IMG/VR virus record: IMGVR_UViG_3300022073_000015
Source: a virus
Reading direction: 5' to 3' (one strand)
DNA length: 49,077 nucleotides
The position numbers and the translations under genes are program-made. Below are positions 1 to 49,077 of the stretch, piece after piece. The stretch's first letter is position 1. Every line of letters begins with the position of its first letter. The notes below the pieces were generated by a model. The model searched no databases. It saw only the letters and a list, made by a program, of their open reading frames with translations, and had not been told where the DNA came from.

Positions 1-55
1 GCGCCGACAGGACGAGTCCGAAACAACCAGAAAACAAGTACAACAGAATTTACCG
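1..55. repeat. Terminal overlap: positions 1-55 are identical to 49023-49077. This reflects circular closure or terminal redundancy of the assembly; unit length 49,022 bp.
   Basis: First 55 nt (gcgccgacaggacgagtccg...aatttaccg) are identical to the last 55 nt. An ORF that runs off the 3' end continues in frame from position 2. Confidence 0.9.
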
Positions 56-2278: not shown

Positions 2279-2293
2279 ATGGGGCTTTATTTT
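2269..2293. terminator. Bidirectional intrinsic terminator between convergent genes
   Basis: gcccc-aataaat-ggggc hairpin followed by tttatttt. Lies between the stop of 1943..2278 (+) and the stop of 2287..3333 (-). Confidence 0.6.
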
Positions 2294-4699: not shown

Positions 4700-5043
4700 C
4701 AGTACGTAAAATTGATGAAAATGGTGATATTGTCACACAAGGGTCGATGTTTCTGACCGGACGTGAAGAGATTGAGCAGACGATTAAAACACGTTTGCGT
4801 CTCTTCCTCGGCGAATACTTCCGTGACATTACGGATGGTACACCGTGGTTTGAGCAAATTTTAGGTAAAGGCACAACACTCTCCGCACGTGAAGCAGCAT
4901 TGCGCAACCGCATCGTGAGGACACCCGGCGTTGTACGCCTTACCAGCTTTAGTACAAATTTTGATTTGAACACTCGCACATATTCGGTCACTGCTGGCGC
5001 ACTGACTACTTACGGGCTAATTACGGTGACTGAAAATGGCTGA
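4696..5043 (+). CDS. Baseplate wedge protein (gp25/GPW-like)
   Basis: 115 aa, ATGA-type overlap with the spike gene, immediately upstream of the J-like gene. Confidence 0.5.
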   Translation: MTVRKIDENGDIVTQGSMFLTGREEIEQTIKTRLRLFLGEYFRDITDGTPWFEQILGKGTTLSAREAALRNRIVRTPGVVRLTSFSTNFDLNTRTYSVTAGALTTYGLITVTENG

Positions 5044-6247
5044 AGTTACAACCACCGGTTACAAACTTAAAACGCAAAACGAATGGTTCGATGAAGAGAA
5101 GCAACTGTATCTTGACATCGACCCCCTGTGGAATCTCGACCCATCCACTCCAGACGGTCTCAAAATTGCACATGATGCTGAGGTATTTGGTGCACTGGAT
5201 GAGACGCTACAGCAGGCGTACAACTCCAAAGACCCGAACAAGGCAACCGGCGTTGACCTCGATGTCATTGCGTCCCTGACCGGCACTACCAGAAGTGAAG
5301 GTACTGCGTCCACAGTGACGGGCTTTGTCCTGAGTGGTGTTCCTAACTCAACGGTCGTCCCCGCTGGTACGATGTTTGAGTCGACTGTAACAGGCTCACG
5401 CTGGACGCTTGACCAGACATGGACGCTTGACTCGTCCGGTATCGCCACAGTGGACATCACATCCACCACAACCGGACCGGTTGAAGCTGACGCGAACACA
5501 ATCACGCGCATTATCACCACTGTACCGGGTTTGACCAGTGTCACAAACCCTACACCCGCCACTCCCGGTACAAACGTTGAGTCTGACAGTTCACTACGTG
5601 TCAAACGTGCTACGGCTGTGGGTCGTCCGGGTAACAACCAGATTGATTCAATGCTGGGCGAACTGTTTGCGGTTAGCGGCACGCGCCGTGTGAAAATTTA
5701 CGAGAATGACACCAACGCCACGGATATTAATGGTTTACCAGCGCACAGCATTGCTCCCATTATTGATGGTGGTACTGACGCCGATGTGGCAATGGCTATC
5801 TATGTGAAGAAAAATCCCGGTGCAATGTTGTATCAGGCCGGGACACCTGTGTCAGTAGTGGTTACTTCCCCCACCTATCCGACGAACACGAAAGAGATTA
5901 AATTCAGCCGACCTGTTTATGTGGATATGGTCGTTGTTGTGAATATTAAGGACGACGGTACATTACCATCACAGGCGACGTTGCAACCACTCATTCAGGA
6001 AGCGATTCTCGAATACGCAGCAGGTGACCTCATTCCCACAGAGTACGGATTCAAGCCTGACGGGTTTGATATAGGTGAAACTGTGCCTTACAGTTCCATG
6101 TACACCCCGATTAACAAGGTTATCGGTTCATACGGTAACAGCTATGTTGACAGCATGACATTGAATAGTGGCACAACAAATGTCACAATAGATTTCAACG
6201 AATTGTCCCGCTGGACCACATCTAACATAACGGTGAACATTGTATGA
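5036..6247 (+). CDS. Baseplate J-like protein (Mu gp47 / P2 gpJ family)
   Basis: 403 aa. Synteny W-like, J-like, fiber. Overlapping start and stop codons. Confidence 0.6.
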   Translation: MAEVTTTGYKLKTQNEWFDEEKQLYLDIDPLWNLDPSTPDGLKIAHDAEVFGALDETLQQAYNSKDPNKATGVDLDVIASLTGTTRSEGTASTVTGFVLSGVPNSTVVPAGTMFESTVTGSRWTLDQTWTLDSSGIATVDITSTTTGPVEADANTITRIITTVPGLTSVTNPTPATPGTNVESDSSLRVKRATAVGRPGNNQIDSMLGELFAVSGTRRVKIYENDTNATDINGLPAHSIAPIIDGGTDADVAMAIYVKKNPGAMLYQAGTPVSVVVTSPTYPTNTKEIKFSRPVYVDMVVVVNIKDDGTLPSQATLQPLIQEAILEYAAGDLIPTEYGFKPDGFDIGETVPYSSMYTPINKVIGSYGNSYVDSMTLNSGTTNVTIDFNELSRWTTSNITVNIV

Positions 6248-21714: not shown

Positions 21715-22370
21715 TGGATATTAAAACAGAGAATACGTGGCTAATGTTTGGCGATTGTCTGGAACGTATGAGGGAGATTCCAGACGGTGGTATTGATATG
21801 GTTTTGTGTGACATTCCTTATGGTGAAGTTTCTCAAAAAAGTTCGGGTTTGAGACTGCTTGACAGAGGGAATGCCGACACATGTAACATTGACCTGATTG
21901 AAATGACAAACGAACTGAACAGAGTTTGCAGTGGTTCTTTTTATATTTTCTGTGGAACTATGCAAATCAGCACGCTGGTAGAAAATTTTAAAAACATTGG
22001 TTTAACTACCCGCGTCGGGGTATGGGAAAAGACTAACCCCAGTCCAATGAATGGTACAAAACTTTGGGTAAGTGGACTTGAATTTTGTGTGTTTGCTCGA
22101 AAACCAAAATCCACTTTCAACGAACATTGTCAAAAGGCGTTATGGCAAGCACCATCCGGAAGAGCGAAAATACATCCCACAGAGAAACCTGTCAAACTAA
22201 TTGAGCGGTTGATTATTGCATCGAGTAACGAAGGCGACACTGTACTGGATAATACGATGGGCAGCGGTACTACCGGTGTTGCGTGTCGCAATACAAACCG
22301 CAAATTTATAGGTATTGAAATGGACCCCACATACTATGGTATTGCTTGTGGTCGCATACTGAGTAGTTGA
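21714..22370 (+). CDS. DNA methyltransferase (N6A/N4C, beta class), paralog 2
   Basis: CDIPYG and HPTEKP. Its C-terminal 45 aa differ from paralog 1 at a single residue. Confidence 0.85.
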   Translation: MDIKTENTWLMFGDCLERMREIPDGGIDMVLCDIPYGEVSQKSSGLRLLDRGNADTCNIDLIEMTNELNRVCSGSFYIFCGTMQISTLVENFKNIGLTTRVGVWEKTNPSPMNGTKLWVSGLEFCVFARKPKSTFNEHCQKALWQAPSGRAKIHPTEKPVKLIERLIIASSNEGDTVLDNTMGSGTTGVACRNTNRKFIGIEMDPTYYGIACGRILSS

Positions 22371-22395
22371 CCATCCCGTCAACGCGTGTCATACT
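22367..22395 (+). promoter_or_regulatory. Dyad-type promoter (site f): TTGACC-N17-CATACT, dyad TTGACCatccCGTCAA
   Basis: Overlaps the stop codon of methyltransferase 2. Points into the TetR-like gene. Confidence 0.5.
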
Positions 22396-22426
22396 GGCTG
22401 CAATACTAACAGATACGGACTTAATC

Positions 22427-22708
22427 ATGAGCAAAGATACTATTTTAGAAGTAGCTTACACAATGGCACAACGTGACGGTTTCGGTACTCTTACACGCGA
22501 CGGTGTTGCGGCGGAAGCTGGTGTAGCCATGGGTAGTATAAATCATCACTGGGTGGTCATGTCTGCATTGCGTGATGCCGTAATGCAACGGGCTGTAGAA
22601 GAAGAAAATCTTGAAATAATCGCACAAGGGATTGCATTGGGTGACAAAATCGCAAATGCGGCACCACGTGCGATTCGAGTCAAGGCCGTGAATGAGTATC
22701 TTTTGTAA
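22427..22708 (+). CDS. Truncated TetR-family-like HTH DNA-binding protein (93 aa)
   Basis: ILEVAYTMAQRDGFGTLTRDGVAAEAGVAMGSINHHW matches the TetR_N helix-turn-helix pattern. No room for a ligand-binding domain. Confidence 0.5.
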   Translation: MSKDTILEVAYTMAQRDGFGTLTRDGVAAEAGVAMGSINHHWVVMSALRDAVMQRAVEEENLEIIAQGIALGDKIANAAPRAIRVKAVNEYLL

Positions 22709-22723
22709 AGGATCGTCTTGACG

Positions 22724-23407
22724 ATGGCTGGAAAAGCTTTAACAACGGAGGAATTTGTCAGCAGGGCTACAAAAGTACATGATGGAAAATACCGATATGA
22801 CAAATCGGTGTATACAGTTGGTACGATTCAATTGATTATCACTTGTCCTGAACACGGGGATTTTAAACAAATCCCCAGTAGTCACTTACGGGGGTGGGGT
22901 TGTCAGCATTGCGGAGGAAAATTAAAAAGCAATACGAATCTATTCATCAAAAAGGCACGTGAAATTTATGACGATAAGTATTCTTATGAAAAAGTAAAAT
23001 ATGTTCGCAATAAAATAAAAGTCACAATTACTTGTGCCAAACATGGAGATTTTACACAGACTCCAAATCATCATCTCAGAGGTGTAGGTTGCCCGAGGTG
23101 TGCAAAACATGGTTTCAACCCCTCAAAAAATGGAACGCTTTACGCACTTCGTTCTACCTGCGGTCAGTATGTCAAGATAGGCATAACAAATAATTTCGAG
23201 CAACGTTTTCACGCTTTAAAGCGCGTAACACCATTTGACGTATCCGTCATTGAGCGTATAGAATGTGACGGACAAACCGCCTCACAGTTAGAGAAGATGT
23301 TTCACAGAGAGTTTGAATCGGCTGGTTTTATGGGATTTGATGGTGCAACCGAGTGGTTGCGATGGTCAGCAGAGATACAACACTGGTTAAGGTTATTAAA
23401 ATGTTAA
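22724..23407 (+). CDS. T5orf172-domain protein with two Zn-ribbon modules (homing-endonuclease-like)
   Basis: Two VH(D/-)GKY.Y...CP/CAxHG...GCxxCG modules. The C-terminus (GTLYALRS..YVKIGIT...GATEWL) is homologous to that of 2287..3333. Confidence 0.6.
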   Translation: MAGKALTTEEFVSRATKVHDGKYRYDKSVYTVGTIQLIITCPEHGDFKQIPSSHLRGWGCQHCGGKLKSNTNLFIKKAREIYDDKYSYEKVKYVRNKIKVTITCAKHGDFTQTPNHHLRGVGCPRCAKHGFNPSKNGTLYALRSTCGQYVKIGITNNFEQRFHALKRVTPFDVSVIERIECDGQTASQLEKMFHREFESAGFMGFDGATEWLRWSAEIQHWLRLLKC

Positions 23408-25656
23408 AACAATATATTCCTTATTCTTTGGTAAAAGTCGGAGATAAGACGGTGAAACGTCCTCACGGTTCCACTACCAATCCGAATGACTGGATGACAC
23501 GTGAGGAAGCAGCTGCGAAGGGTGGGGATGGTGTAGGCTTTGTGTTCACGAATGATGACCCATACTTCTTTATTGATATTGACCACTGTCTTGTTGATGG
23601 GCAATGGTCACCGCTAGCGATGGAACTGTGTCGGGCATTCGCCGGGTGCTATGTCGAGATTTCACAAAGTGGAACAGGTCTTCACATCATCGGTAGCTAC
23701 TCTTCCATACCGGAACACTCCTGCAAAAATATAGCGCTTGGTCTTGAACTCTATCACACTGAAAGATTTGTTGCTTTGACTGGCTCAAGTGCGCAAGGGT
23801 CATGGGAACACGATGCTACCGGGGCGCTAAATACAGTAATTGCGCGCTATTTTCCGAAAGAAGAATCCACGGTGTCAGTGAAATGGACAAACTCACCACA
23901 GGTGGGTAGTAACCCGATTGAGGATGATACGAAACTCATTGAAAAAGCGTGTGCGGCTAAGGAGGGGGTTTCGGTTGTTTTTGGCGGTAAGGCCACTTTC
24001 AAAGACCTATGGAATGGCGTGGTATCGGAAGACGACGACCGTTCATCGCTTGACTCATCTCTCGCCACCCGGCTTTTATGGTGGACAGGTGGGAACTGCG
24101 AAAGAACTAAATCGCTGATGCTACAGAGTGGTCTTAAAAGAGATAAGTGGTTCACCAATAAGTCGTATCTGGAGCGCACCATCCTCAACGCCGCCGGACT
24201 TCTTACAACCTATTACAGTGTCGGTGCACCGATTGAACTCGTGACCCCTGCTCAGGTTGTGGAATCTAATACACCAATTATCCGCAGTGGTTATCAGTTT
24301 ATTGGTGGATCTCAATTATTAGACCATTTCAAAGGCTGCGTGTATGTGGCAGACAGTCATCGCGTACTAACCCCAAATGGTCAAATGCTGAAATCGGAAC
24401 AATTCGATGTTATGTACGGTGGTTACGCCTTCGCGTTAGACGACAGTAACGAAAAAACAACAAAGTCTGCCTTTGAAGCCTTCACACGGAGTCAGTGCAT
24501 CATGTTCCCGAAGGTTGACCGCTCGACATTCCGTCCGGATTTACCGCAAGGTGCGATTATTGAAGAGGACGGATTACGCCACGTTAACGCATATGTACCG
24601 GTAACTGTAGCGAGCACGCCAGGTGATGTGACACCTTTCCTCACCCATCTGGCTAAACTGTTACCGGTGGAGCATGACCGTGCTATTTTACTGGCGTACA
24701 TGGCAGCATGTGTACAACACAAAGGCACTAAATTTAAATGGGCACCTCTTTTGCAGGGTGTTGAGGGTAATGGTAAAACATTATTCACACTGTGTGTTAT
24801 GGAAGCGGTCGGGTCGCGCTACAGCCACATGCCACCAGCGCAGGAAATTGGCGAAAAATTCAACGCATGGTTGTTCGATAAAATATTTATCGGCGTGGAA
24901 GATATCTACGTTCCTGAGCAAAAACTTGAAGTGATTGAAATACTCAAACCGATGATTACCGGTGAATACCTGGCTAAACGTGCAATGCAGCAGGACCAGG
25001 TGATGCACCGGCTGTGCGCTAACTTCATGTTCAACAGTAATCACAAGAACGCCGTGCGCAAGACCGCTAATGACCGACGTTTTGCCATTTTCTACACTGC
25101 ACAGCAGGAGCATGCTGATATTGTGCGCAGTGGGATGGACGGCGATTATTTCCCCAACCTGTACGAATGGCTCAAGCGTGGCGGCGGTTTTGCCGCAGTA
25201 ACTCACTATCTGGAGAATTACGCCATCCCTGACGCGCTCAACCCGGCAACACATTGCCAACGTGCACCGGAGACAAGCAGCACTCACGAGGCAGTTACTG
25301 CGTCACTGGGTGGTGTGGAGCAGGAGATTATGGAAGCGATTGATGAAGGTCGTCAGGGCTTTGCAGGTGGATGGGTGAGCAGTAAGGCACTGGACAACCT
25401 GTTGCGCTCAATGCGTGCGGAACGTCAGATACCACCGGGTAAACGCCGTGACCTCATGATGAGTCTGGGATACGACTGGCACCCGGCGCTCAAGGATGGA
25501 CGTGTGAACAATGTGATAATGATTGATGGCGGTAAGCCACGCCTTTACATCAAAGTGGGTCACATCCACGCCAACCTTGAACGTGCGGCGGATGTGGAGC
25601 GCTATTATGCAGCGGCGCAGGGTGATACAACCGCACTTGCAATGACAGCCCCGTGA
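23401..25656 (+). CDS. Bifunctional primase-polymerase (AEP) / D5-like SF3 helicase
   Basis: AEP motifs FFIDIDH and SQSGTGLH. Walker A GVEGNGKT. ATG at 23401. Confidence 0.85.
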   Translation: MLKQYIPYSLVKVGDKTVKRPHGSTTNPNDWMTREEAAAKGGDGVGFVFTNDDPYFFIDIDHCLVDGQWSPLAMELCRAFAGCYVEISQSGTGLHIIGSYSSIPEHSCKNIALGLELYHTERFVALTGSSAQGSWEHDATGALNTVIARYFPKEESTVSVKWTNSPQVGSNPIEDDTKLIEKACAAKEGVSVVFGGKATFKDLWNGVVSEDDDRSSLDSSLATRLLWWTGGNCERTKSLMLQSGLKRDKWFTNKSYLERTILNAAGLLTTYYSVGAPIELVTPAQVVESNTPIIRSGYQFIGGSQLLDHFKGCVYVADSHRVLTPNGQMLKSEQFDVMYGGYAFALDDSNEKTTKSAFEAFTRSQCIMFPKVDRSTFRPDLPQGAIIEEDGLRHVNAYVPVTVASTPGDVTPFLTHLAKLLPVEHDRAILLAYMAACVQHKGTKFKWAPLLQGVEGNGKTLFTLCVMEAVGSRYSHMPPAQEIGEKFNAWLFDKIFIGVEDIYVPEQKLEVIEILKPMITGEYLAKRAMQQDQVMHRLCANFMFNSNHKNAVRKTANDRRFAIFYTAQQEHADIVRSGMDGDYFPNLYEWLKRGGGFAAVTHYLENYAIPDALNPATHCQRAPETSSTHEAVTASLGGVEQEIMEAIDEGRQGFAGGWVSSKALDNLLRSMRAERQIPPGKRRDLMMSLGYDWHPALKDGRVNNVIMIDGGKPRLYIKVGHIHANLERAADVERYYAAAQGDTTALAMTAP

Positions 25657-26794: not shown

Positions 26795-27334
26795 CTACTC
26801 TCCGCACTGTTTACATTTACCGTTTGCCACGTAGCGTTCACCGATACCCCCGCAGTGCTTGCAACGTGTATCTGGTGTGTACCATTTGTCACCATCCCGC
26901 AACGCTTCCTGTCGTGTTTTGCCGCGTTTTGGTATCTCTTGTGGTACATCCACACCGAGTGCGACAGCGGTCTCCAGAAGCGCTCTATATTGCATTAAAA
27001 GCGCTAACTCTTCATCGAGGTTTGCAAGGCGCTGCTCGTTGATGTTAGTGCTGGTGACACTGATGGTGGGTTTGTCAGAGAGCGCGCAAAATACACACTT
27101 GCCGTTGGTCATTTGCACGCCGGGATGCCAGCACAGTTTGTTACGACTCTTAAGCACTCGCCACTTTTTACCGCTGCGTAAGAGCGACAAAACTTCGTCG
27201 ATGTGTTCATAACCGGTTGTTGTACCATCTTTCAAAGCTCTCACAAGGTCGTTATGACGATGAAGAGAGCACGCGGAACATTCTCCGCTAATTTTATTAA
27301 AAACTGTACTTTCGCATTTTGGACACTGATTCAT
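26795..27334 (-). CDS. Multi-zinc-finger protein (candidate DNA-binding or regulatory protein)
   Basis: 179 aa with CPKC..CSAC, a C..C pair, and CKHCGG...CKQCG. Confidence 0.45.
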   Translation of the reverse strand: MNQCPKCESTVFNKISGECSACSLHRHNDLVRALKDGTTTGYEHIDEVLSLLRSGKKWRVLKSRNKLCWHPGVQMTNGKCVFCALSDKPTISVTSTNINEQRLANLDEELALLMQYRALLETAVALGVDVPQEIPKRGKTRQEALRDGDKWYTPDTRCKHCGGIGERYVANGKCKQCGE

Positions 27335-27402: not shown

Positions 27403-27655
27403 TTACCCCAGTGGGGTATTTTGTAAGTTATTGAATCAGATGACGTTTAAAAGTTTTACCCAAAACCCCGGTGCCGCTTCACTCCGTACTAATATTTATT
27501 CTATTTTATATTATATAGATATACTTATAGTATATCTATATGCGTATAATTATAGTATTTACTTACTACTAATATAAGACTTTTAACGGGGTATTAGGGT
27601 AAAGTAGTAGTAATATATAAGTAATACAGTAACTTACAAAATACCCCGGTATACC
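27403..27655. repeat. Nested-dyad AT-rich element A
   Basis: Nested inverted repeats with a common dyad axis at about 27527-27530:
- Outer perfect 18-bp inverted repeat, 27413-27430 / 27630-27647.
- Inner inverted repeat, 27455-27470 / 27587-27603.
- Central AT palindrome, 27513-27541.
Homologous to element B. Confidence 0.8.
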
Positions 27656-27682
27656 TGAAAATGGTTTTTTATCGGGGTGTGG

Positions 27683-27743
27683 TGGGGTATTGGCTCATTG
27701 TGTGGAATTGGTGTTGCAACTGTGGTATTGTCTGTGGTATTGG
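27683..27743 (+). repeat. Four direct iteron-like repeats, TGTGG(T/A)ATTGG
   Basis: Copies start at 27683, 27701, 27721 and 27733, about 50-110 nt upstream of the terS start. Confidence 0.6.
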
Positions 27744-27793
27744 CGCGTAAACGGGAGACGTAACATGACTGGATTTGGTGAGGGTTAAACACA

Positions 27794-34738: not shown

Positions 34739-34755
34739 GTTGTCTCGATGGGGTA

Positions 34756-34785
34756 AGTCTACCCCACCTTTGACGGACTCGTCAA
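34756..34785 (-). promoter_or_regulatory. Dyad-type promoter (site i): TTGACG-N18-TAGACT, dyad 34770-34785
   Basis: Minus-strand reading. Confidence 0.6.
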
Positions 34786-35973: not shown

Positions 35974-36002
35974 TTGTATCTCCTTTAAAAGATATGTATT
36001 AT
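35974..36002 (+). promoter_or_regulatory. Candidate rightward promoter TTGTAT-N17-TATTAT for the scaffold/capsid genes
   Basis: Hexamers at 35974-35979 and 35997-36002. Dyad site j lies about 30 nt downstream. Confidence 0.3.
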
Positions 36003-36018
36003 GCTATTAACGATTACC

Positions 36019-36047
36019 AATATGGCACACTCTGACGGGTTCGTCAA
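36019..36047 (-). promoter_or_regulatory. Dyad-type promoter (site j): TTGACG-N17-CATATT, dyad 36032-36047
   Basis: Minus-strand reading. Drives the 35971-34826 cassette. Confidence 0.55.
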
Positions 36048-36048
36048 G

Positions 36049-37179
36049 ATGCAAATTACGATTAATGACCGCCGCAGTTACCAGCTTGACTCTCAACGTG
36101 TATACACGGATGAGGGTTTCCTGCGTGTACCGGGTAAAGCAGCGCGTACCGGTATTCAGGACTATCTGGCGTGTGAATTGGGTCTTAAAGACCGTGACCC
36201 GAACAGCATCGTAAAAGTTTATCGTCCCGCTGATGAAGTGTTCAAAGATGAATCACTTGCTACCTATCTCGGCGCAGATGTAACCAATGACCACCCTTCC
36301 TCACTTGTTAATGCCGACACTTACCGTAATACCAGTGTTGGCGTGGTCACAAGTGTGGGTCGTCAGGAAAATGATTTTGTGGTTGTCGATATGGTCATCA
36401 AACATAAAGACGCCATCAAAGCTGTTGAGTCCGGCAAGTGTGAACTCTCAGCGGGTTATACGGCAATTTATGACGACACACCGGGTACAACTCCGGATGG
36501 TGAATCATACGATTTCCGTCAGACCAGTATCAAAATTAACCACGTTGCAATTGTTGACCGTGCTCGTGCGGGAATGATGGCGCGTATCTTTGATGAAAAA
36601 ACCGGAGGCAATATGCCCGTTAATATCACGCTCGACAGTGGACGCGTCATTGATGTCGCTGACGCTGCTAATGCTCAACTGGTAGCTGATGCTTTTGACC
36701 GTTCTGAAAAGCGTGTCAAAGATGCGGAAGCGGCCCGTGACACTGCACAGGCTCTGTACGACTCGGCGCAGGAGCAGGTTAAGGAGCTGCAACAGAAATG
36801 CAGCGATGAAGCAATTAAAGCACGTGTTGAACAACTCGCCCGTGTGACCACCCTCGCCCGTAAAGTTGCCGGTGACGCATTCACCTGTGACAGCATGGAC
36901 CACGTTGAAATCATGCGTTCCGCGCTGACTGCTAAACGTCCGACCATTGACTGGGCTTCCAAATCTGCGGCATACGTTGAAGCAGCATTCGACCAGGCTT
37001 CTGAGAAAGAAGACGAGGAAGAAGAGTCCGAAGATGCTGGCGGTAACGGTAAGAAGCGTAAAATGGGTGACCAGTATGCACAATTGTCAGAAGACGCCTC
37101 GCAGGTTACTCAGGTTGTAGGGGACGCCATGACCACGCACAAAAACAACATCTCAGCACGCTGGAAAGGAGCGAAATAA
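36049..37179 (+). CDS. Scaffold / prohead protease-like protein (DUF2213-like)
   Basis: Position upstream of the capsid gene. Coiled-coil, acidic C-terminal half. The start is uncertain (ATGs at 36001, 36022 and 36049). Confidence 0.45.
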   Translation: MQITINDRRSYQLDSQRVYTDEGFLRVPGKAARTGIQDYLACELGLKDRDPNSIVKVYRPADEVFKDESLATYLGADVTNDHPSSLVNADTYRNTSVGVVTSVGRQENDFVVVDMVIKHKDAIKAVESGKCELSAGYTAIYDDTPGTTPDGESYDFRQTSIKINHVAIVDRARAGMMARIFDEKTGGNMPVNITLDSGRVIDVADAANAQLVADAFDRSEKRVKDAEAARDTAQALYDSAQEQVKELQQKCSDEAIKARVEQLARVTTLARKVAGDAFTCDSMDHVEIMRSALTAKRPTIDWASKSAAYVEAAFDQASEKEDEEEESEDAGGNGKKRKMGDQYAQLSEDASQVTQVVGDAMTTHKNNISARWKGAK

Positions 37180-37180
37180 G

Positions 37181-37657
37181 ATGCCTGTACAAACTACTTA
37201 CGCGAAGTACATGGATTCGGCTCTTGACGGCATGAAAGCCGACATGGAAGCCTACAATACCGTGTCGAAACTGAACAAAGGTACTGCGGTCATTCCGTTT
37301 GGTCGCGCTGTGTTCACAGATGGTGACGACGGGATGAAACTACCAGCTGCCGGTTCAACCGCTGCACAGTTTATCGGTGTGACCTTCCGTGAACTGACCC
37401 GCGCATACACCACCACTGAAATCGCTGGCGGTATCGGTGCAATTCCTAAGTATGATAACACCGTGATGACGATGGGTGTTATCTGGGTGTCCCCGGCTGT
37501 TGCAGTCGCCAAAGATGACCCGGTATACGTGTTGAAAGCTGATGGTCGTTTCACCAACGTTGCGGGCACCGGCAACATTCTTATTCCAAACGCTAAGTTC
37601 GTGTCCACTGCTGCGGCTGGCGCGCGTGCGAAAGTTTCACTGGTTATCGGGGGTTAA
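37181..37657 (+). CDS. Head decoration / cement-like structural protein
   Basis: 158 aa, between the scaffold and major capsid genes. Confidence 0.35.
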   Translation: MPVQTTYAKYMDSALDGMKADMEAYNTVSKLNKGTAVIPFGRAVFTDGDDGMKLPAAGSTAAQFIGVTFRELTRAYTTTEIAGGIGAIPKYDNTVMTMGVIWVSPAVAVAKDDPVYVLKADGRFTNVAGTGNILIPNAKFVSTAAAGARAKVSLVIGG

Positions 37658-38646
37658 TGATGAAATTAGTTACGGCTACTGACAGCCAGACCGGGTTTAA
37701 GTACAGCTATGATGCGGATTTACAATACGCAAAATCATTCGATGCTGCGGGTATTGCATTTTATATCAGCCAGCTGACCAACCTCGAAGCGAAAGTGTAT
37801 GAAACCCTGTACCCGGATATCATCTTTGATGAGCTGGTCCCGGTGAACACATCCGACCCTGAGTGGGTGGATAACGTTGCGTATATGTCTTTCAACGCGG
37901 TCACAATGGCGAAATTTATCGCTGCAAACGGTCGTGACCTGCCACAGTCTGACATTGACGCGAACATTTCCTATATCCCTGTAGGTTATGCGGGTAACAG
38001 CTACGGCTATTCCATTGAAGAGCTGCGTAAAGCTGCTGCAATGCGCATCCCGCTGGACGCAACCAAAGCGCGTATCGCATACCGTGGCGCTCGCCAGTTC
38101 CAGCAACAGATTGCGTTCTTCGGCGATGCTGACCGTAATATGCAGGGATTGTTTAATAACAGTAACGTGCCGCTGGACAACTCCACCATCAACTGGAACA
38201 CCGCGACCGGCGCTGAAATGGTTGCTGCGCTGAACAGCCTGTTAATCAAAGTGTGGAATCAGTCGAACACTCGTCACGTTGCTAACACACTGCTGCTGCC
38301 GACTACTATCTGGAGCATCATTTCCAGTAAGAGAATGGACACTGGTACTGATACTACAGTGCTTGAGTTCTTCCGTCAGAATAACAACTCAACAGGTGTA
38401 ACCGGTCAACCGCTGACCATCCGTGCTGTTCTGTGGTTGAACGATGCTGGTGTGGGTGGTGCGCCTCGCATGATGGCGTATGAGCGTAACGAAGATAATC
38501 TCACGATGCGCATGCCTATTCCGTGGCGCTCACTCCCGCCGCAACCAACCGCTTTACGTCTTGATATTCCTTGTGAATTTAAGATTTCAGGCGTTGAGTT
38601 CCGTTACCCTCTGTCTGCCGCTTACCGTGATGTAATCGCACCGTAA
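37657..38646 (+). CDS. Major capsid protein (DUF2184 / encapsulin-like HK97 fold family)
   Basis: 329 aa. Pattern LTNLEAKVYETLYPD...PV...W...Y..F...AKFIA. Followed by a strong terminator. Confidence 0.7.
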   Translation: MMKLVTATDSQTGFKYSYDADLQYAKSFDAAGIAFYISQLTNLEAKVYETLYPDIIFDELVPVNTSDPEWVDNVAYMSFNAVTMAKFIAANGRDLPQSDIDANISYIPVGYAGNSYGYSIEELRKAAAMRIPLDATKARIAYRGARQFQQQIAFFGDADRNMQGLFNNSNVPLDNSTINWNTATGAEMVAALNSLLIKVWNQSNTRHVANTLLLPTTIWSIISSKRMDTGTDTTVLEFFRQNNNSTGVTGQPLTIRAVLWLNDAGVGGAPRMMAYERNEDNLTMRMPIPWRSLPPQPTALRLDIPCEFKISGVEFRYPLSAAYRDVIAP

Positions 38647-38652
38647 GTTTAC

Positions 38653-38676
38653 AACCCCTCTTCGGAGGGGTTTTTT
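38653..38676 (+). terminator. Intrinsic terminator after the capsid gene
   Basis: aacccctc-ttcg-gaggggtt followed by tttt. Confidence 0.8.
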
Positions 38677-38748
38677 ATCATCTTGACTGGTACAGACACG
38701 TCCGTTAAACTGTTTTCAGTGTTTCAACGGGTCGAGGAGATGACAAGA

Positions 38749-40368
38749 ATGAGTACCAGATTAACAACAACTGACTTCATCAAATGTGCCAGGCAGGTAC
38801 ATGGTGATAAATATGATTATTCTCACACTGTGTATACAGGACGTCACAGTAAGCTTAGTGTGGTCTGCCCCATTCATGGGTGTTTCGAACAAACTGCGGG
38901 TAGTCACCTTATCGGTCGCGGTTGCCCGGCGTGCGGCAAAATAACAAAAGCCGATAAACGTCGTTTCACAGTGTGCGATTTCATAAAAAATGCCCGAACT
39001 GTACACGGTGATAAATACGATTATTCAAAGTCTGTTTACGTCAATTCCCGTACCAGACTCATCATCACATGTCGGGAGCATGGTGATTTCGAACAAAGTC
39101 CTGATATGCACTACAACCTGAAACAAGGGTGCCCCACTTGTGGAATTATCAGACGTTCTCAAACGCAAAACAAAGGGTTGTCGAAATTCATCACGGAAGC
39201 AAACAGTGTACACGGTGGTAAATATGACTATTCGAAAACTGATTACGTTAATGCGCGACATAAACTGGTCATTACATGTCCTGAACACGGTGACTTCGAA
39301 CAGGTTGCTGCGAATCACGTCAATTTAATGCAGGGTTGCCCAAAATGCGCAAACAGAACACGACCAGAATCACTGAGATATTCACTTGAAAAATTCATTG
39401 AACTGGCGAACCTGAAACATTCGGGCAAATATGATTATTCTAAATCGATATACATTGATAGTCAGACACCTTTAACCGTTACATGTCAGGAACATGGTGA
39501 TTTCGAACAACGCCCTTACAGTCACCTGGCTGGTTTCGGTTGTGCTAAATGCAGCGGGTGGGGGTCATCAAAAGGCGAACAAGCTATTTTCGATTACATC
39601 AAAAGTGTTCACCCCGACGCCATCCAGTCCGACCGCAATGTGATAGCGCCTTTCGAGCTTGATGTAGTTGTCCCGTCGCTGAAACTGGCAGTAGAGTTCA
39701 ACGGTATATACTGGCACAGTGAGAAATACCGCGACGAAACGTATCACATTAACAAGCGTGAAATGACGGAACAGGCTGGTTACAGACTTATCAGCATTCG
39801 TGAAGACCTGTGGAACGAGCGTCGCCCGCAGATTGAAGCAATTATTAACAATGCTCTCGGTGTGAACACACGTCGCGTCTACGCTCGTAAGTGCACTATT
39901 GTTGCCGCCGACAAAGACACCGCTGCAACCTTCTTCGACGCTAACCACGTTCAGGGTAACAGAGCAGCGTCACAATACTGGTCACTCGTCCATAATGGCG
40001 AAACTGTGGCGGTAATGAGCGCGACGCACTGGCGTAAAAAGGATGAGTGGGAGCTGGTCCGATACGCAACATCCTGTAACGTCGTTGGCGGTCTTAGTAA
40101 ACTGTGGAAACACATTGTCAAAGTGAATAACATTACCCGCGCTTACTCATACGTTGACCGCGATTTGTTCACTGGTAAAAGCTATGGTCACGCTGGCTTT
40201 AAATATGACTCCGCAACGGTGGGATTCAGAATCGTAACAGGTGAAACAACTGAATCACGACAGAAGTGGAACAACGCACCGGACGGTCTGACACAAAACG
40301 AGTGGTACGAGCGCGAAGGCGTGTGCAGGATATACGACGCCGGGCAGGACAAACTCATATTTGGCTGA
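38749..40368 (+). CDS. Hef-like homing endonuclease: four Zn-ribbon modules, a Vsr/PD-(D/E)XK-like nuclease region, and a C-terminal domain
   Basis: Four VHG(D/G)KYDYS...C..HG.FEQ...GCP.CG modules with a period of about 204-207 nt. These are followed by ELDVVVPSLKLAVEFNGIYWHSE. Confidence 0.55.
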   Translation: MSTRLTTTDFIKCARQVHGDKYDYSHTVYTGRHSKLSVVCPIHGCFEQTAGSHLIGRGCPACGKITKADKRRFTVCDFIKNARTVHGDKYDYSKSVYVNSRTRLIITCREHGDFEQSPDMHYNLKQGCPTCGIIRRSQTQNKGLSKFITEANSVHGGKYDYSKTDYVNARHKLVITCPEHGDFEQVAANHVNLMQGCPKCANRTRPESLRYSLEKFIELANLKHSGKYDYSKSIYIDSQTPLTVTCQEHGDFEQRPYSHLAGFGCAKCSGWGSSKGEQAIFDYIKSVHPDAIQSDRNVIAPFELDVVVPSLKLAVEFNGIYWHSEKYRDETYHINKREMTEQAGYRLISIREDLWNERRPQIEAIINNALGVNTRRVYARKCTIVAADKDTAATFFDANHVQGNRAASQYWSLVHNGETVAVMSATHWRKKDEWELVRYATSCNVVGGLSKLWKHIVKVNNITRAYSYVDRDLFTGKSYGHAGFKYDSATVGFRIVTGETTESRQKWNNAPDGLTQNEWYEREGVCRIYDAGQDKLIFG

Positions 40369-42385: not shown

Positions 42386-42751
42386 TTAAGACCTTCTCTT
42401 ACCGTACTGACGATACTTATCTGACAGAATCCGTGGAATCTCGTCTACGGTGAATCCCACGGAAAACCAGTATTCATATAGCTTTTGAGCAATCCGCGCT
42501 CTGGCAAATGAATCGTAATGACTTCCTAGTCTGTACGTTTTTCGATTAATGGTTTTTGATACCATCCATCCAAATTCTGTCTGCTGCACGCCGGGACATA
42601 GTGCCGAGTGCTTGTGACGCAATGATACAAAACGTTCACGCTTAACTTTTTTCTTCTTCTCGTGAACAACTTTTGACGGTTTGTTTTCAGTTTTCACGGG
42701 TGCAGATGTGTCACCAAAATGTTTATCGAGAATAAACTGAGCGAAACTCAT
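42386..42751 (-). CDS. Basic protein with a possible AP2-like DNA-binding fold
   Basis: FGWMVSKTINRKTYRLGSHYDSFARA resembles AP2/integrase-type DNA-binding domains. Weak call. Confidence 0.3.
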   Translation of the reverse strand: MSFAQFILDKHFGDTSAPVKTENKPSKVVHEKKKKVKRERFVSLRHKHSALCPGVQQTEFGWMVSKTINRKTYRLGSHYDSFARARIAQKLYEYWFSVGFTVDEIPRILSDKYRQYGKRRS

Positions 42752-42782
42752 TTTTAAAATCCTCTCTGAAAATTATAGAACG

Positions 42783-42811
42783 AGTCTAACACCTCCTGAC
42801 GGACTCGTCAA
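42783..42811 (-). promoter_or_regulatory. Dyad-type promoter (site l): TTGACG-N17-TAGACT, dyad 42796-42811
   Basis: Minus-strand reading. Confidence 0.6.
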
Positions 42812-42820
42812 TGCCCTGCA

Positions 42821-43060
42821 CTGGGGTAAAATGTGTATCCACAAATCAATGACTTAGATTAGTTTACCCAAAACCCCGATGGTGCTTCACTCCGTACTAA
42901 TAAATATTCTACTTGTATGTATACAATATACATATACCTATATTCTTTTCTCCCTACAGTTAATTTTAACGGGGTATTTGGGTAAAGTAGTAGTATTACT
43001 ATATAAATTAATAACTTACAAAATACCCCGAATCAGGACAAAATCATTCATCGGGGTACA
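42821..43060. repeat. Nested-dyad AT-rich element B (homolog of element A)
   Basis: Inner inverted repeat at 42863-42878 / 42970-42986 and central palindrome at 42916-42934 share an axis at about 42925. The right outer arm (43012-43029) is identical to that of element A. The left outer arm is degenerate: GGGGTA is retained at 42823. Confidence 0.75.
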
Positions 43061-43097
43061 GTAGCGTCCGGCGACAGCTTGTGTGATAATCCTTGAC

Positions 43098-43565
43098 ATG
43101 AGCGTAAAAATTATTGACTTCCAACTGGCACAAGCCGAAATCAAACGTGAACTGGATAAGTTGCGCGGGAACAAATACGTCACTGTAGGTATCCACGAAG
43201 ATGCGGGTAACGTGGAGGACGGCTCGATGACGCAGGCACAGAACGGTGCGTTACAGAATTACGGCAACGATAAAATACCCGCTCGCCCGTGGCTCCTTCC
43301 CGGCGTACAGTCTGCCACTCAGGACATTGTGGATACCATTGCTTCCGGTATCGAGCACGGTTTACCTAATGACCAGATTATGGAACAGGTTGGTGCGTTT
43401 GCAGCAGGCGCAACTCAGCAGTACATCACTGACCTGAGAGACCCACCTAACGCACCGTACACCATCGAGAAAAAGGGTTCAGACAATCCTCTTATCGATA
43501 CAGGTTCAATGCGTGCGGCAGTAACATACAAAGTAACCGACCAGAAACCAGACGAGGGTATTTAA
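43098..43565 (+). CDS. Tail completion / HK97 gp10-like protein
   Basis: First gene of the tail block. The start is uncertain (GTG at 43083 or ATG at 43098). Confidence 0.35.
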   Translation: MSVKIIDFQLAQAEIKRELDKLRGNKYVTVGIHEDAGNVEDGSMTQAQNGALQNYGNDKIPARPWLLPGVQSATQDIVDTIASGIEHGLPNDQIMEQVGAFAAGATQQYITDLRDPPNAPYTIEKKGSDNPLIDTGSMRAAVTYKVTDQKPDEGI

Positions 43566-47938: not shown

Positions 47939-49077
47939 TGGCGAACGTTATAACATCTTTTCTCGTGGGTATCGGCCTCGACGTTAGTGATTTTGAATCT
48001 GGCGAGAAAAAGGTCACTCAGTCGATGGACCGCATCAAATCTTCCACACTGGGTATCGGTGCAGCGATGGCATCCGCTGTTGTGGGTGCGGGTGTCAAAG
48101 TTGACCAGATGGCTGAGAAGAGTCGTAAATTACAGGACCAGCTCTATCGCACGAACACATCACCTGTATGGGTGCAGGGTTACGGTGTTGCACTTACTGA
48201 GCTGGGTGGAAATGCTGATGACGCATCCGGTCGCATTGTTGACCTTGAGAATAAGCTATCGTCCATAAAAATGGGTCAGGGTGGCGACTGGTTACGTTCA
48301 CTCGGTGCTGCCGGATTTGACGCATCTGCATTGTCCAGAGCAAAAAACGCTTATGAATTTATTGCTCTGGCGGCGGACCAGTTCTCGAAGGTACAGGGTG
48401 ATTCACTCGCTACTGTTGAAGAGCGACGCCGCAACATGGCGTCAGTGCTCGGACTTACCGACGCTGAATTTAAACTGTGGCAACAGGGTGGTAAATATGT
48501 CGATGAGCACAGTCGACAACTCGCCACACAACTCGGCTATACCGAAGAACTGAACGCTAAACAGTACGAGTATTCACAGGCGTGGAAAGAGGTGAATCTC
48601 GAGCTTGACAAAGCCAGTAATACGCTGGGTGTTATCATGCTGGATGATATGACCAGTCTGGTCAACAAGGCGAAAGAATACACATCGACATTCAACGATT
48701 TTACGCAGAAGAATCCTGAGGAGACCAAATCAGCTTTGGAAGGTGGTATGGTTGTCGCCGGTGGGCTTACATTATCATCAATCGGTGCGATGTTGAGCAA
48801 ATTCGGCATTCCGGGTGCGGCTATTTTACGTGGTGCTGGTCCGGTAGCTACTGCTGCTGGTATCTCGATAGCTACTGAACCATGGGTTGATAAGGGTTTA
48901 AACTCTGTATTTGGTGGTTCTGAGTATTACCAGAACTTACGTACCGCTCCGACATGGGACGAGTTTGGACAGGCTCTTATCGGTCAGCGTAAAACCACGC
49001 CGGAAGTTCAGAAGTATGTGGAGCGCCGACAGGACGAGTCCGAAACAACCAGAAAACAAGTACAACAGAATTTACCG
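47938..49077 (+). CDS. Tape measure protein, N-terminal part. It runs off the window and continues at 2..400, for about 494 aa in total.
   Basis: ATG at 47938 overlaps the upstream TAA. There is no stop codon to the end of the window. Helical and Ala/Gly-rich, with hydrophobic segments. Not in the ORF track because it is unterminated. Confidence 0.6.
   Translation, partial: MANVITSFLVGIGLDVSDFESGEKKVTQSMDRIKSSTLGIGAAMASAVVGAGVKVDQMAEKSRKLQDQLYRTNTSPVWVQGYGVALTELGGNADDASGRIVDLENKLSSIKMGQGGDWLRSLGAAGFDASALSRAKNAYEFIALAADQFSKVQGDSLATVEERRRNMASVLGLTDAEFKLWQQGGKYVDEHSRQLATQLGYTEELNAKQYEYSQAWKEVNLELDKASNTLGVIMLDDMTSLVNKAKEYTSTFNDFTQKNPEETKSALEGGMVVAGGLTLSSIGAMLSKFGIPGAAILRGAGPVATAAGISIATEPWVDKGLNSVFGGSEYYQNLRTAPTWDEFGQALIGQRKTTPEVQKYVERRQDESETTRKQVQQNLP
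49023..49077. repeat. Second copy of the 55-nt terminal overlap
   Basis: Identical to positions 1-55. Confidence 0.9.

What the first reader, a model, noticed from the sequence alone, without database searches (positions are those of the whole stretch)
42821..43060. Element B: a second, homologous copy of the nested-dyad element, immediately upstream of the tail gene block
Blocks of element A recur here almost verbatim:
- tttacccaaaaccccg.tg..gcttcactccgtactaata (42863 onward, versus 27455 onward).
- ttttaacggggtatt.gggtaaagtagtagta (42964 onward, versus 27581 onward).
- taacttacaaaataccccg (43012 onward, versus 27630 onward).
- An atcggggt block (43050, versus 27671).

The inner inverted repeat and a central AT palindrome (42916-42934) again share one axis, at about 42925. 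The AT-rich core sequence itself is not conserved; only its composition and symmetry are.

Both copies sit at a switch from leftward accessory genes to a rightward late operon (terS at 27794 and the tail genes at 43098). Conservation of the flanks but not the core, in two copies, suggests a functional cis element such as a late promoter/enhancer or a pair of origins. A MITE-like mobile element is an alternative.
Basis: seen in the sequence. Interest (0 to 1): 0.7.

Follow-up and report, generated by a model that had tools for sequence, protein, structure and literature searches.

The report
Iteron-studded late-operon control region, two copies
Element B and its twin A are non-coding control regions found throughout a family of Klebsiella-type myoviruses, in which 8-9 copies of the short motif CGGGGTA surround a very AT-rich stretch and end at a promoter for a late operon, so they look like late-gene switches that may also serve as replication origins.

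Summary
B (about 42823-43097) and A (about 27404-27745) are the only two copies in this 49-kb Jedunavirus-like genome (blastn E 5e-26). Their nested dyads share one axis, at about 42925 in B and about 27530 in A.

The conserved blocks are not coding and not a known RNA. They are arrays of one heptamer, CGGGGTA, laid out as: reverse copies, an AT-rich core, a forward tandem, an IHF-like site, one or more reverse copies, then one forward copy.

The last copy sits at a fixed distance from a -35-less extended -10 promoter. Across 20 unrelated spacer sequences that distance is about 11, 21-24 or 30-33 nt, and never in between. In B the ATG of the neck gene lies 7 nt after the -10 hexamer, which implies a leaderless mRNA.

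The layout recurs, usually twice per genome, in more than 50 IMG/VR contigs, almost always before terS or the neck gene. It is absent from enterobacterial genomes.

Best reading: a protein-bound iteron array that controls late-operon promoters. The strong rival, which could also be true at the same time, is a SaPI/P4-type origin for the phage's PriRep-like primase-helicase. MITE, pac-site and RNA readings are rejected or weak. The element appears to be undescribed. Interest is moderate.

The parts
42783..42811 (-). Leftward sigma70-type promoter of the accessory-gene block. It has TTGACG, a 17-nt spacer and TAGACT, and is embedded in the palindrome TGACGGACTCGTCAA (42797-42811). It forms the left boundary of element B.
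   Evidence: It belongs to the dispersed promoter/operator family with at least 13 copies (D2/D6).
42823..42828 (+). Outer-left GGGGTA iteron. It is the partner of TACCCC at 43024 in the outer dyad.
   Evidence: I3.
42844..42856 (+). Perfect IHF consensus AATCAATGACTTA (WATCARNNNNTTR) in the left arm.
   Evidence: It is one of only 4 perfect matches in the genome.
42863..42878 (-). L cluster, TTTACCCAAAACCCCG: two reverse-oriented iterons (TACCC and ACCCCG) bordering the core.
   Evidence: I2/I6. The same cluster, with 1-3 copies, is present in every lineage.
42879..42969 (.). AT-rich core (71% A+T) with a C+T-rich left part on the + strand. It contains the palindrome 42902-42923/42927-42948, centred at 42925.
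   Evidence: Its sequence and length vary between lineages (78-168 nt).
42970..42984 (+). M cluster, CGGGGTATTTGGGTA: a forward tandem of two iterons, inverted relative to the L cluster.
   Evidence: It is the best-conserved block of the family.
43006..43018 (+). IHF-like site AATTAATAACTTA (1 mismatch) inside the purine-rich M-R spacer 42985-43023.
   Evidence: A site at the same position and orientation occurs in 15 of 28 lineages, 7 of them perfect.
43024..43058 (.). R cluster: reverse iteron TACCCCG (43024-43030), a 21-nt variable loop, then the promoter-proximal forward iteron CGGGGTA (43052-43058).
   Evidence: I8. The stem sequence is invariant and the loop is free to vary, with no covariation.
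43082..43090 (+). Extended -10 promoter TGT-GATAAT, 23 nt after the last iteron. The -35 position reads TAGCGT, which matches the consensus at 2 of 6 bases.
43098..43565 (+). Neck / tail-completion gene, the first gene of the neck, sheath and tube operon. Its ATG begins 7 nt after the -10 hexamer, which implies a leaderless or near-leaderless mRNA.
   Evidence: (phrog_222). The same 7-nt arrangement occurs in L008-group, L019 and L060.
27404..27745 (.). Element A, the paralogous copy upstream of terS. Its parts are: the outer dyad 27413-27436/27624-27647; L cluster 27455-27470; core 27471-27586 (palindrome centre 27530); M tandem 27587-27601; R iteron 27642-27648; CGGGGT 27673-27678; GGGGTA 27684-27689; extended -10 TGG-TATTGT at 27723-27731; and a second -10-like TGG-TATTGG at 27735-27743.
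23353..25656 (+). Candidate trans factor 1: a fused primase-helicase with an NrS-1/PriRep5-like prim-pol domain, a DUF5906 helicase and a conserved C-terminal domain of about 190 aa.
26795..27334 (-). Candidate trans factor 2: a 179-aa protein with tandem Zn-ribbon domains (phrog_1081 type), encoded divergently next to element A.

Best explanation
Element B, like its paralogue A, is a cis-acting control region built from a short iteron, CGGGGTA, rather than from a folded RNA or a mobile element.

Proposed mechanism:
1. A phage-encoded sequence-specific protein binds the 8-9 iterons. These are arranged as two reverse copies, the AT-rich core, two forward copies, an IHF-type bend site, one or more reverse copies, and one forward copy.
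2. The resulting nucleoprotein complex places one protomer on the promoter-proximal iteron, centred near -42.
3. From there it recruits or activates host sigma70 RNA polymerase on a promoter that has an extended -10 (TGT-GATAAT, 43082-43090) but no -35.
4. Transcription starts at or next to the ATG at 43098 and gives a leaderless mRNA for the neck, tail-completion, sheath and tube operon.
5. Copy A does the same for terS, terL and portal.
6. The divergent sigma70 promoter on the left (42783-42811) belongs to the accessory block, so the element acts as the switch region between the two programmes.

What is shown and what is inferred:
- Shown by sequence and comparison: the iteron array, its conservation, the phased promoter and the position of the start codon.
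- Inferred: that a protein binds the iterons, that the binding activates transcription, and that the timing is late.
- Estimated probabilities: iterons are protein sites 0.85; a promoter lies at the right edge 0.8; the same array is also an origin 0.4 (see rival 1, which is not exclusive).
For: 1. Motif clustering. 9 of the genome's 24 GGGGTA/TACCCC hexamers lie within the two elements, which together span about 600 bp. Counting GGGGTA and CGGGGT on both strands gives 9 and 8 hits per 320-nt window in A and B, against at most 3 anywhere else.

2. Conservation with turnover.
- The pattern TACCCCG-N5-9-TACCCCG-N8-22-CGGGGTA hits 54 IMG/VR stretches, mostly from 43-50 kb contigs and typically two per genome. 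39 of them lie directly upstream of terS or neck homologues.
- The motif is invariant while loops, spacers and cores differ beyond recognition.
- No compensatory changes are seen, which argues for sequence-specific protein recognition.

3. Phased promoter.
- The distance from the last iteron to TGn-TAnnnT is 21-24 nt in 12 distinct spacer classes, 30-33 nt in 5 and 11-12 nt in 2. None falls at 13-20 or 25-29 nt.
- This periodicity of one helical turn is what a face-of-the-helix contact with RNA polymerase predicts.

4. Independent support for the start site. The ATG lies exactly 7 nt after the -10 hexamer in four separate lineages (window B/L005, L008 group, L019, L060 terS). The other lineages carry an AGGAGG leader instead.

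5. Within the window, GGGGTA-N19-25-TGn-[T/G]AnnnT occurs on the + strand only at B.

6. Both copies precede operons of virion and packaging genes.

7. An IHF consensus lies between the M and R clusters in 15 of 28 lineages.

8. Rfam finds no family and ARAGORN no tRNA.
Against: - There are no expression data, so the start site, the timing and the dependence on an activator are all inferred.
- The binder is unidentified. Models of both candidates gave no significant PDB match.
- A single promoter-proximal site would be enough for activation. The opposed iteron pairs around the most AT-rich DNA of the genome are better explained by an origin.
- Edwardsiella phage PEi21 copy B keeps the iterons but has no proximal -10 before its neck gene.
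- Some lineages place a full -35/-10 promoter after the array (L051 group, L088), so activation may not always be needed.
- Other late genes (46437 onward) use the ordinary TTGACG-N4-CGTCAA promoter class.
Confidence: 0.55

Rival explanations
1. SaPI/P4-type replication origin, present twice. In this reading the CGGGGTA repeats are iterons for the phage's self-loading primase-helicase (23353-25656). Hexamers load on the opposed iteron pairs either side of the AT-rich core and melt it. The attached promoter is secondary, or it couples late transcription to origin firing. This is not exclusive of the best explanation.
For: - The published SaPI ori has 6-12 penta- or hexanucleotide iterons, an AT-rich centre, and at least two iterons on each side pointing in opposite directions, and is bound by a winged-helix CTD of Rep (PMC9371898). 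Element B has exactly this layout (L cluster 42863-42878, core, M cluster 42970-42984).
- The 767-aa gene product matches NrS-1 prim-pol and SaPI5 PriRep5 (7OLA, E 3e-10) and carries a DUF5906 helicase.
- The cores are the 1st and 4th most AT-rich windows of the genome, and the 2nd and 3rd in Pantoea phage AAM22.
- No other iteron-like cluster exists in non-coding DNA of the genome.
- In lineages whose TerL is only about 25% identical and whose TerS is a different, longer type, the element persists together with a primase-helicase that is 42-49% identical.
- Iteron clusters lie 0.7-5.9 kb downstream of the primase-helicase gene in 31 loci and essentially never upstream.
- The CTD model shows a winged-helix-like beta-alpha-alpha-beta-beta pattern at high pLDDT.
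Against: - Neither copy is immediately downstream of the helicase gene. A is 1.7 kb away and B 17 kb away.
- Two copies, always at late-operon starts, fit promoters more naturally.
- The helical phasing to a -10 element is a transcription feature.
- PEi21 copy B has a core with only 55% A+T and no palindrome.
- The CTD fold search gave no significant hit (best E 0.58).
- The Rhizobium phage with a 37%-identical primase has no such cluster nearby.
- GC skew simply follows gene orientation.
Confidence: 0.4
2. Packaging initiation (pac) site of the P1/SPP1 type. TerS-binding hexamers would flank the region where terminase cuts.
For: - Copy A lies directly upstream of terS.
- Hexamer clusters on both sides of a central region, together with an IHF site, resemble P1 pac (from own knowledge).
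- Jedunavirus IME346 has no fixed termini, which implies headful packaging (PMC9007800).
- Many IMG/VR contigs end inside the element.
Against: - There are two copies, and B is 15 kb from terS, next to the neck gene.
- The contig ends are explained by assembly. Fragments of about 34-35 kb and 12-15 kb are exactly the two arcs between the repeated copies.
- The iteron is invariant although TerS DNA-binding domains are only 23% identical between lineages.
Confidence: 0.05
3. Structural nucleic-acid element. The nested dyads would form an RNA (an attenuator or put-like antiterminator) or an extruded DNA cruciform or hairpin, and that structure is what matters.
For: - Folding of the L-core-M segment is much more stable than shuffled controls in the window (z -4.4 for A, -4.7 for B), in KsaM-C1, in PEi21 copy A and in L090.
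- The flanks of the M tandem are complementary in about half of the lineages, with mean z of -1.7.
Against: - z is about 0 in Jedunavirus proper, L023, L081 and PEi21 copy B.
- An ungapped fold-back is not above chance.
- Stems are conserved in sequence without covariation, and loop lengths vary freely between lineages (21 nt in B).
- Rfam finds no match at gathering score across the window; a permissive search (E up to 1) was run on element B only (42700-43200) and also found none.
- The mapped promoter lies downstream of the hairpins.
- The terminator-like hairpins with T-tracts are not conserved outside the window's lineage.
Confidence: 0.07
4. MITE-like mobile element that inserted twice.
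For: There are two similar copies with terminal inverted repeats.
Against: - The same two syntenic positions are occupied across genera.
- No target-site duplication is visible at either copy.
- There is no third copy.
- A scan of 185,579 genomes gave 49 hits scattered over unrelated taxa, none in Enterobacterales. About 20 are expected by chance.
Confidence: 0.02

Closest known systems
SaPI (staphylococcal pathogenicity island) replication origins with Rep/PriRep self-loading helicases
   Same: - Short (5-7 bp) iterons, 6-12 per element.
- An AT-rich centre with at least two iterons on each side in opposite orientation.
- A fused prim-pol/helicase related to PriRep5 is encoded in the same genome.
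   Different: - This is a virulent Gram-negative myovirus, not a satellite.
- There are two copies per genome.
- Neither copy abuts the helicase gene.
- Each copy ends in a phased promoter for a late operon.
- Binding by the helicase CTD is unproven.
Phage P4 ori plus crr, and SPP1 oriL/oriR (from own knowledge)
   Same: Two separated cis elements carry the same initiator-binding repeats in one phage genome. The P4 alpha protein is likewise a primase-helicase with a C-terminal origin-binding domain.
   Different: - The P4 iterons are 8-mers.
- crr lacks the mirror-symmetric layout around an AT core.
- Neither P4 nor SPP1 elements are fused to late-operon promoters.
Activator-dependent phage promoters lacking a -35: T4 MotA-dependent middle promoters, P2/186 Ogr/B late promoters, Mu Mor/C promoters (from own knowledge)
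   Same: - A good (extended) -10 and no -35.
- A phage-specific box at a fixed distance upstream.
- A candidate Zn-binding small protein is encoded nearby (Ogr is a Zn-finger protein).
   Different: - The box sequence and position differ: CGGGGTA centred near -42, also tolerated about one turn nearer or further.
- There are 8-20 boxes per promoter region instead of one.
- The Zn-ribbon protein shows no detectable homology to Ogr, Mor or MotA.
phi29 A2c/A2b-A3 switch region (p4/p6) and the SV40 control region (from own knowledge)
   Same: A compact non-coding region between divergent early-type and late transcription units, with multiple sites for one viral protein. In SV40 these sites overlap the origin and a 17-bp AT tract.
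   Different: The proteins and motifs are unrelated, and no evidence here shows repression of the leftward promoter.

Membership tests
SaPI/PICI-type iteron origin | 6-12 short (penta- or hexanucleotide) iterons | tested here: met
   8 iteron hits in B and 9 in A, and 5-20 in relatives. Definition taken from PMC9371898.
SaPI/PICI-type iteron origin | AT-rich region at the centre, with at least 2 iterons on each side in opposite orientation | tested here: met
   L cluster 42863-42878 (2 reverse copies), core with 71% A+T, M cluster 42970-42984 (2 forward copies). This holds in most lineages. Jedunavirus proper has only one iteron directly left of the core.
SaPI/PICI-type iteron origin | [quoted passage not shown] | tested here: not met
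   A is 1.7 kb downstream with 4-5 genes in between, and B is 17 kb away. In relatives the distance is 0.7-5.9 kb.
SaPI/PICI-type iteron origin | Cognate helicase with a C-terminal winged-helix domain that binds the iterons | tested here: inconclusive
   A PriRep5/NrS-1-like primase-helicase is present. The CTD model has a winged-helix-like secondary-structure pattern, but the best Foldseek hit has E 0.58 and the profile search finds nothing.
SaPI/PICI-type iteron origin | Supports initiator-dependent replication or melting | not testable with these tools
   Needs marker-frequency analysis, a plasmid replication assay or KMnO4 footprinting.
Activator-dependent extended -10 promoter | TGn plus a -10 hexamer with A at position 2 and T at position 6, and no -35 match | tested here: met
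   TGT-GATAAT at 43082-43090. The -35 position 43062-43067 reads TAGCGT, a 2 of 6 match.
Activator-dependent extended -10 promoter | Activator site at a fixed, helically phased distance | tested here: met
   Spacings fall at 11-12, 21-24 or 30-33 nt only, across 20 distinct spacer classes.
Activator-dependent extended -10 promoter | Mapped transcription start and dependence on the activator | not testable with these tools
   Only indirect support: the ATG lies 7 nt after the -10 in four lineages.
MITE / small mobile element | Terminal inverted repeats plus target-site duplication, with dispersed non-syntenic copies | tested here: not met
   No duplication is visible. There are only two copies, both syntenic. 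The genome scan is at chance level.
Structured RNA (any Rfam family) | Match to a covariance model, or covarying helices | tested here: not met
   No Rfam hit at gathering score across the window; a permissive search (E up to 1) was run on 42700-43200 (element B) only and also found none. Stems are invariant in sequence, and the fold is not conserved across the family.
P1/SPP1-type pac site | A single site at or in terS, bound by TerS, with packaging-series ends | tested here: not met
   There are two copies and one is not near terS. Contig ends are explained by repeat-induced assembly breaks.

The most novel reading that the evidence does not exclude
The same CGGGGTA array serves two purposes. 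It would be the loading site (origin) of the phage's self-loading primase-helicase and also the activator array of the two late-operon promoters. Under this reading, late transcription of the packaging and tail genes is physically coupled to origin occupancy or firing. That is an SV40-like origin/late-promoter module, present twice and kept alike by gene conversion, in a tailed phage.
Probability: 0.25. Interest if true: 0.75.

Novelty: new variant of a known kind. Interest (0 to 1): 0.55.

Why it matters
Jedunavirus-type "dwarf" myoviruses are widely isolated as candidates for Klebsiella phage therapy. None of the papers found here on these phages mentions their promoters, their origin or these repeats.

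This work supplies several testable items:
- a defined 7-bp motif;
- two mapped control regions per genome;
- a predicted leaderless late start site;
- two named candidate binding proteins.

That makes the late switch, and possibly the origin, of the whole family directly testable. The elements could also be useful for engineering, for example as late-expression cassettes or as sites to avoid when deleting DNA.

There is a practical point as well. The two copies are the reason metagenomic assemblies of these phages break into pieces of about 34 kb and about 14 kb.

Tried and rejected
- **Megablast of the region against INPHARED phages.** No hit. Only blastn with 11-base words found relatives.
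- **tRNA and Rfam searches.** Nothing found.
- **Coding potential.** The 61-codon ORF 42879-43064, and small ORFs across the R cluster (ATG after TACCCCG), are not conserved in frame or in start codon between lineages. Rejected.
- **Inward-facing terminators** (hairpin followed by ATTTTGTAAGTTA). These are present only in the window's lineage. Rejected.
- **A second upstream promoter using TAACTT as its -10.** That block fits an IHF consensus better. Dropped.
- **A whole-element fold-back or cruciform.** An ungapped axis scan is not above shuffled controls. MFE z-scores are strong in only some lineages.
- **Contig ends inside the element as evidence for pac or physical ends.** They are explained by assembly breaks at the two-copy repeat.
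- **Identity of the binder.**
  - The AlphaFold model of the Zn-ribbon protein (pLDDT 82) has no PDB neighbour. A profile search against PDB sequences finds only chance hits.
  - The primase-helicase CTD model (pLDDT 79) gives no significant Foldseek or profile hit.
  - Synteny does not separate the two candidates, because both are present throughout the family.
- **Rhizobium phage RHph_Y52** (primase 37% identical). No GGGGTA cluster within 7 kb of the gene, so this is uninformative.
- **GC skew.** It follows gene orientation and gives no origin signal.
- **DnaA-box-like GTATCCACA at 42835-43.** An 8 of 9 match is expected about 10 times per genome by chance, so it was ignored.

Full report
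**Context**

The window is a complete, circularly assembled phage genome of about 49 kb; bases 1-55 repeat at 49023-49077. It encodes a contractile-tail virion, with terS, terL, portal, major capsid protein, neck, sheath and baseplate genes. It also encodes a family-B-like DNA polymerase, a helicase and a fused primase-helicase. TerL is 86% identical to Klebsiella Jedunavirus phages such as JD001 and KpV79. At the nucleotide level the region has no megablast match among 50,697 phage records.

**Observation**

- B matches only A in the genome. B 42863-43030 aligns to A 27455-27648 at 73% over 195 columns, E 5.5e-26 (D13/D18).
- In B, the core palindrome (42902-23/42927-48), the inner dyad (42860-77/42972-89) and an outer dyad (42812-28/43024-40) share an axis at 42925-42926.
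- In A, three nested dyads share an axis at 27529-27530.
- The cores differ in sequence and length but are among the most AT-rich DNA of the genome, ranking 1st and 4th.

**What the conserved blocks are**

Read together, the blocks are copies of one short motif, (C)GGGGTA, with its reverse complement TACCCC(G).
- 9 of the genome's 24 hexamer copies fall in the two elements, which together span about 600 bp.
- Counting GGGGTA and CGGGGT on both strands gives 9 and 8 hits per 320 nt in A and B, and at most 3 elsewhere.
- The order in B is as follows:
  1. an outer GGGGTA (42823);
  2. a perfect IHF consensus (42844-56);
  3. the L cluster, TTTACCCAAAACCCCG, two reverse copies (42863-78);
  4. 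the AT-rich core (42879-42969);
  5. the M tandem, CGGGGTATTTGGGTA, two forward copies (42970-84);
  6. a purine-rich spacer with an IHF-like site (43006-18);
  7. the reverse copy TACCCCG (43024-30);
  8. a 21-nt loop;
  9. the forward copy CGGGGTA (43052-58);
  10. a 23-nt spacer;
  11. TGT-GATAAT (43082-90);
  12. 7 nt, then the ATG of the neck gene (43098).

**Relatives**

A sensitive blastn found the right-hand block in unannotated intergenic DNA of several phages: KsaM-C1 (upstream of terS), Pantoea phage AAM22 (two places), Edwardsiella phages PEi21, PVN06 and MSW-3, and an Erwinia phage.

Loci fetched through the neck and terS proteins show the same architecture in Jedunavirus and many metagenomic relatives.

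The exact pattern TACCCCG-N5-9-TACCCCG-N8-22-CGGGGTA occurs in 54 IMG/VR stretches.
- They come mostly from 43-50 kb contigs, typically with two hits per contig.
- 39 lie directly upstream of terS or neck homologues.
- The same pattern in 596 Gb of bacterial and archaeal genomes gives 49 hits scattered over unrelated taxa, none in Enterobacterales. About 20 are expected by chance.

The element is therefore specific to this virulent phage family and sits at two fixed genomic positions. That rules out a MITE.

**RNA or protein sites?**

- The motif is invariant across lineages in which loops, spacers and cores have diverged beyond alignment. Stems never covary, and loop lengths vary freely between lineages (21 nt in B).
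- The nested-dyad fold is strongly favoured in the window (z -4.4 and -4.7) and in a few other lineages. It is at chance in Jedunavirus proper, L023, L081 and PEi21 copy B. An ungapped fold-back is not above chance anywhere.
- Complementarity around the M tandem is only a tendency, with mean z of -1.7.
- Rfam finds no match at gathering score across the window; a permissive search (E up to 1) was run on 42700-43200 (element B) only and also found none.

I conclude that the repeats are recognition sites for a protein, and that the window's neat mirror symmetry is a lineage feature rather than the function.

**The promoter**

Downstream of the last iteron every lineage has an extended -10 (TGnTAnnAT) and usually no -35.

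Across 20 distinct, mutually unalignable spacer classes, the distance from the iteron to TGn is:

| Distance (nt) | Spacer classes |
|---|---|
| 11-12 | 2 |
| 13-20 | 0 |
| 21-24 | 12 |
| 25-29 | 0 |
| 30-33 | 5 |

(individual cases.)

- B has a spacing of 23 nt. A has 33 nt, one helical turn more.
- Spacing conserved modulo about 11 bp, with free spacer sequence, is what a protein contacting RNA polymerase from one face of the helix predicts. It also argues against a sigma-type -35 element.
- In four separate lineages the start codon lies exactly 7 nt after the -10 hexamer: window B/L005, the L008 group, L019 and L060 terS. Other lineages carry an AGGAGG leader. A leaderless gene requires the transcript to start at its AUG, so this independently supports the predicted start site.
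- A-type copies additionally carry a second -10-like element 12 nt downstream (27738-43). That is the position of sigma-dependent pause elements in lambdoid late promoters. I note this but did not pursue it.

**The origin-like half**

The L cluster, AT core and M cluster match the published description of SaPI origins:
- 6-12 penta- or hexanucleotide iterons;
- an AT-rich centre;
- at least two iterons on each side in opposite orientation;
- recognition by a C-terminal winged-helix domain of a self-loading helicase (PMC9371898).

Evidence in favour of an origin:
- The phage's 767-aa protein matches NrS-1 prim-pol and SaPI5 PriRep5 (7OLA, E 3e-10) and carries a DUF5906 helicase.
- No other iteron-like cluster exists in non-coding DNA of the genome.
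- In distant lineages the element persists with a primase-helicase that is 42-49% identical, although TerL is only about 25% identical and TerS is a different, longer type (23% identity in the DNA-binding domain).
- Iteron clusters lie 0.7-5.9 kb downstream of that gene in 31 loci.

Evidence against:
- Neither copy abuts the gene.
- There are two copies, always at late-operon starts.
- PEi21 copy B has a core with only 55% A+T.
- The CTD model, although winged-helix-like in secondary structure, has no significant structural neighbour.

**Second candidate binder**

A Zn-ribbon protein (26795-27334, minus strand) is encoded divergently next to A.
- Its domain, ..SR.DA...G.K.Y.TG.PC..GH...RYVS.G.C..C (phrog_1081 type), recurs once per genome across the family.
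- It is adjacent to copy A in 14 of 31 loci and elsewhere in others.
- Neither its sequence nor its model resembles any solved structure.

**Other points**

- In JD001 the two copies are nearly identical over about 330 bp. In the window's close relative (neck protein 98% identical) the core of A is entirely different (L095). So the copies homogenise within genomes while the cores turn over quickly.
- Many IMG/VR contigs end inside the element. The fragment sizes, about 34-35 kb and 12-15 kb, are the two arcs between A and B. These are therefore assembly breaks at a repeat and not physical ends. The IME346 paper reports no fixed termini.

**Verdict**

B is one of two copies of an undescribed, family-wide iteron control region.
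- Most likely (0.55): it is a protein-bound array that drives a -35-less, helically phased extended -10 promoter for the neck-tail operon, with copy A doing the same for the terminase-portal operon.
- A SaPI/P4-like origin function for the opposed iterons and AT core is a serious reading (0.4) and is compatible with the first.
- Both functions being true together, which would couple late transcription to the origin, is the most novel reading (0.25).
- MITE, pac-site and RNA readings are rejected or weak.
- Nothing in the searchable literature on these phages mentions the element.

Noticed in passing
window 3376, 15727, 17337, 18363, 18420, 20350, 25682, 32427, 34770, 36033, 41873, 42797, 46361: A 16-bp palindrome, TTGACG-N4-CGTCAA, occurs at least 13 times. 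Each copy supplies a consensus -35, followed 17 nt later by TAnnnT on one or both strands. This is the phage's main sigma70 promoter class, with a built-in operator-like dyad. It is also present in AAM22 and JD001. The TetR_N protein at 22367-22708 is a candidate binder.
   Followed up: partly
window 27723-27743: Copy A has two extended -10-like elements exactly 12 nt apart (TGGTATTGT, then TGGTATTGG). The arrangement is conserved in KsaM-C1, L023 and, in weaker form, other A-type copies. This is the geometry of sigma-dependent promoter-proximal pause elements at lambdoid Q-dependent late promoters. No Q homologue was looked for.
   Followed up: no
window 27766-27789: The 7-codon ORF ATGACTGGATTTGGTGAGGGTTAA before terS is a remnant of a longer small gene ending in GFGEG*. 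That longer gene is present in relatives L023, L029 and L031.
   Followed up: partly
window 38683-40368 (+): A 561-aa ORF just after the major capsid gene contains four internal repeats of about 205 nt, with treble-clef/DUF723 Zn-finger hits. It looks like an inserted homing-endonuclease-like or DNA-binding gene.
   Followed up: no
window 2287-3333 (-): This ORF contains four tandem 183-nt repeats (63-82% identity).
   Followed up: no
window 1-55 and 49023-49077: An identical 55-nt terminal overlap, which is a circular-assembly artefact (k=55). The window is therefore one full genome, and its start point is arbitrary.
   Followed up: yes
window 34750-34765: An isolated GGGGTA-AGTC-TACCCC dyad lies immediately next to the palindromic promoter at 34770. 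It is the only iteron pair outside A and B that lies in an intergenic region.
   Followed up: no
L044 (JD001) 4902-5431 versus L025: In JD001, copies A and B are nearly identical over about 330 bp, including the AT core. This indicates concerted evolution or gene conversion. In the window only the iteron blocks are shared. In the window's close relative (L095), the core of copy A has been replaced.
   Followed up: partly
IMG/VR contigs behind L007, L027, L052, L054, L055, L056, L069, L098: Metagenomic assemblies of these phages often break into contigs of about 34-35 kb and about 12-15 kb that end inside the elements. These are the two unique arcs between the repeated copies.
   Followed up: partly
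L008-L014, 250-500 nt upstream of their copy B: This lineage carries an extra array of GGTCACGAAATGTC-like repeats (GTCAC/GTGAC) left of element B. It is a different repeat family of unknown role.
   Followed up: no
window 36001 and 32426: The head-gene block (36001-40368) and the gene at 32426 have no recognisable promoter of their own. They lie downstream of leftward gene blocks. Late transcripts from element A may therefore have to read through the antisense of those blocks.
   Followed up: no
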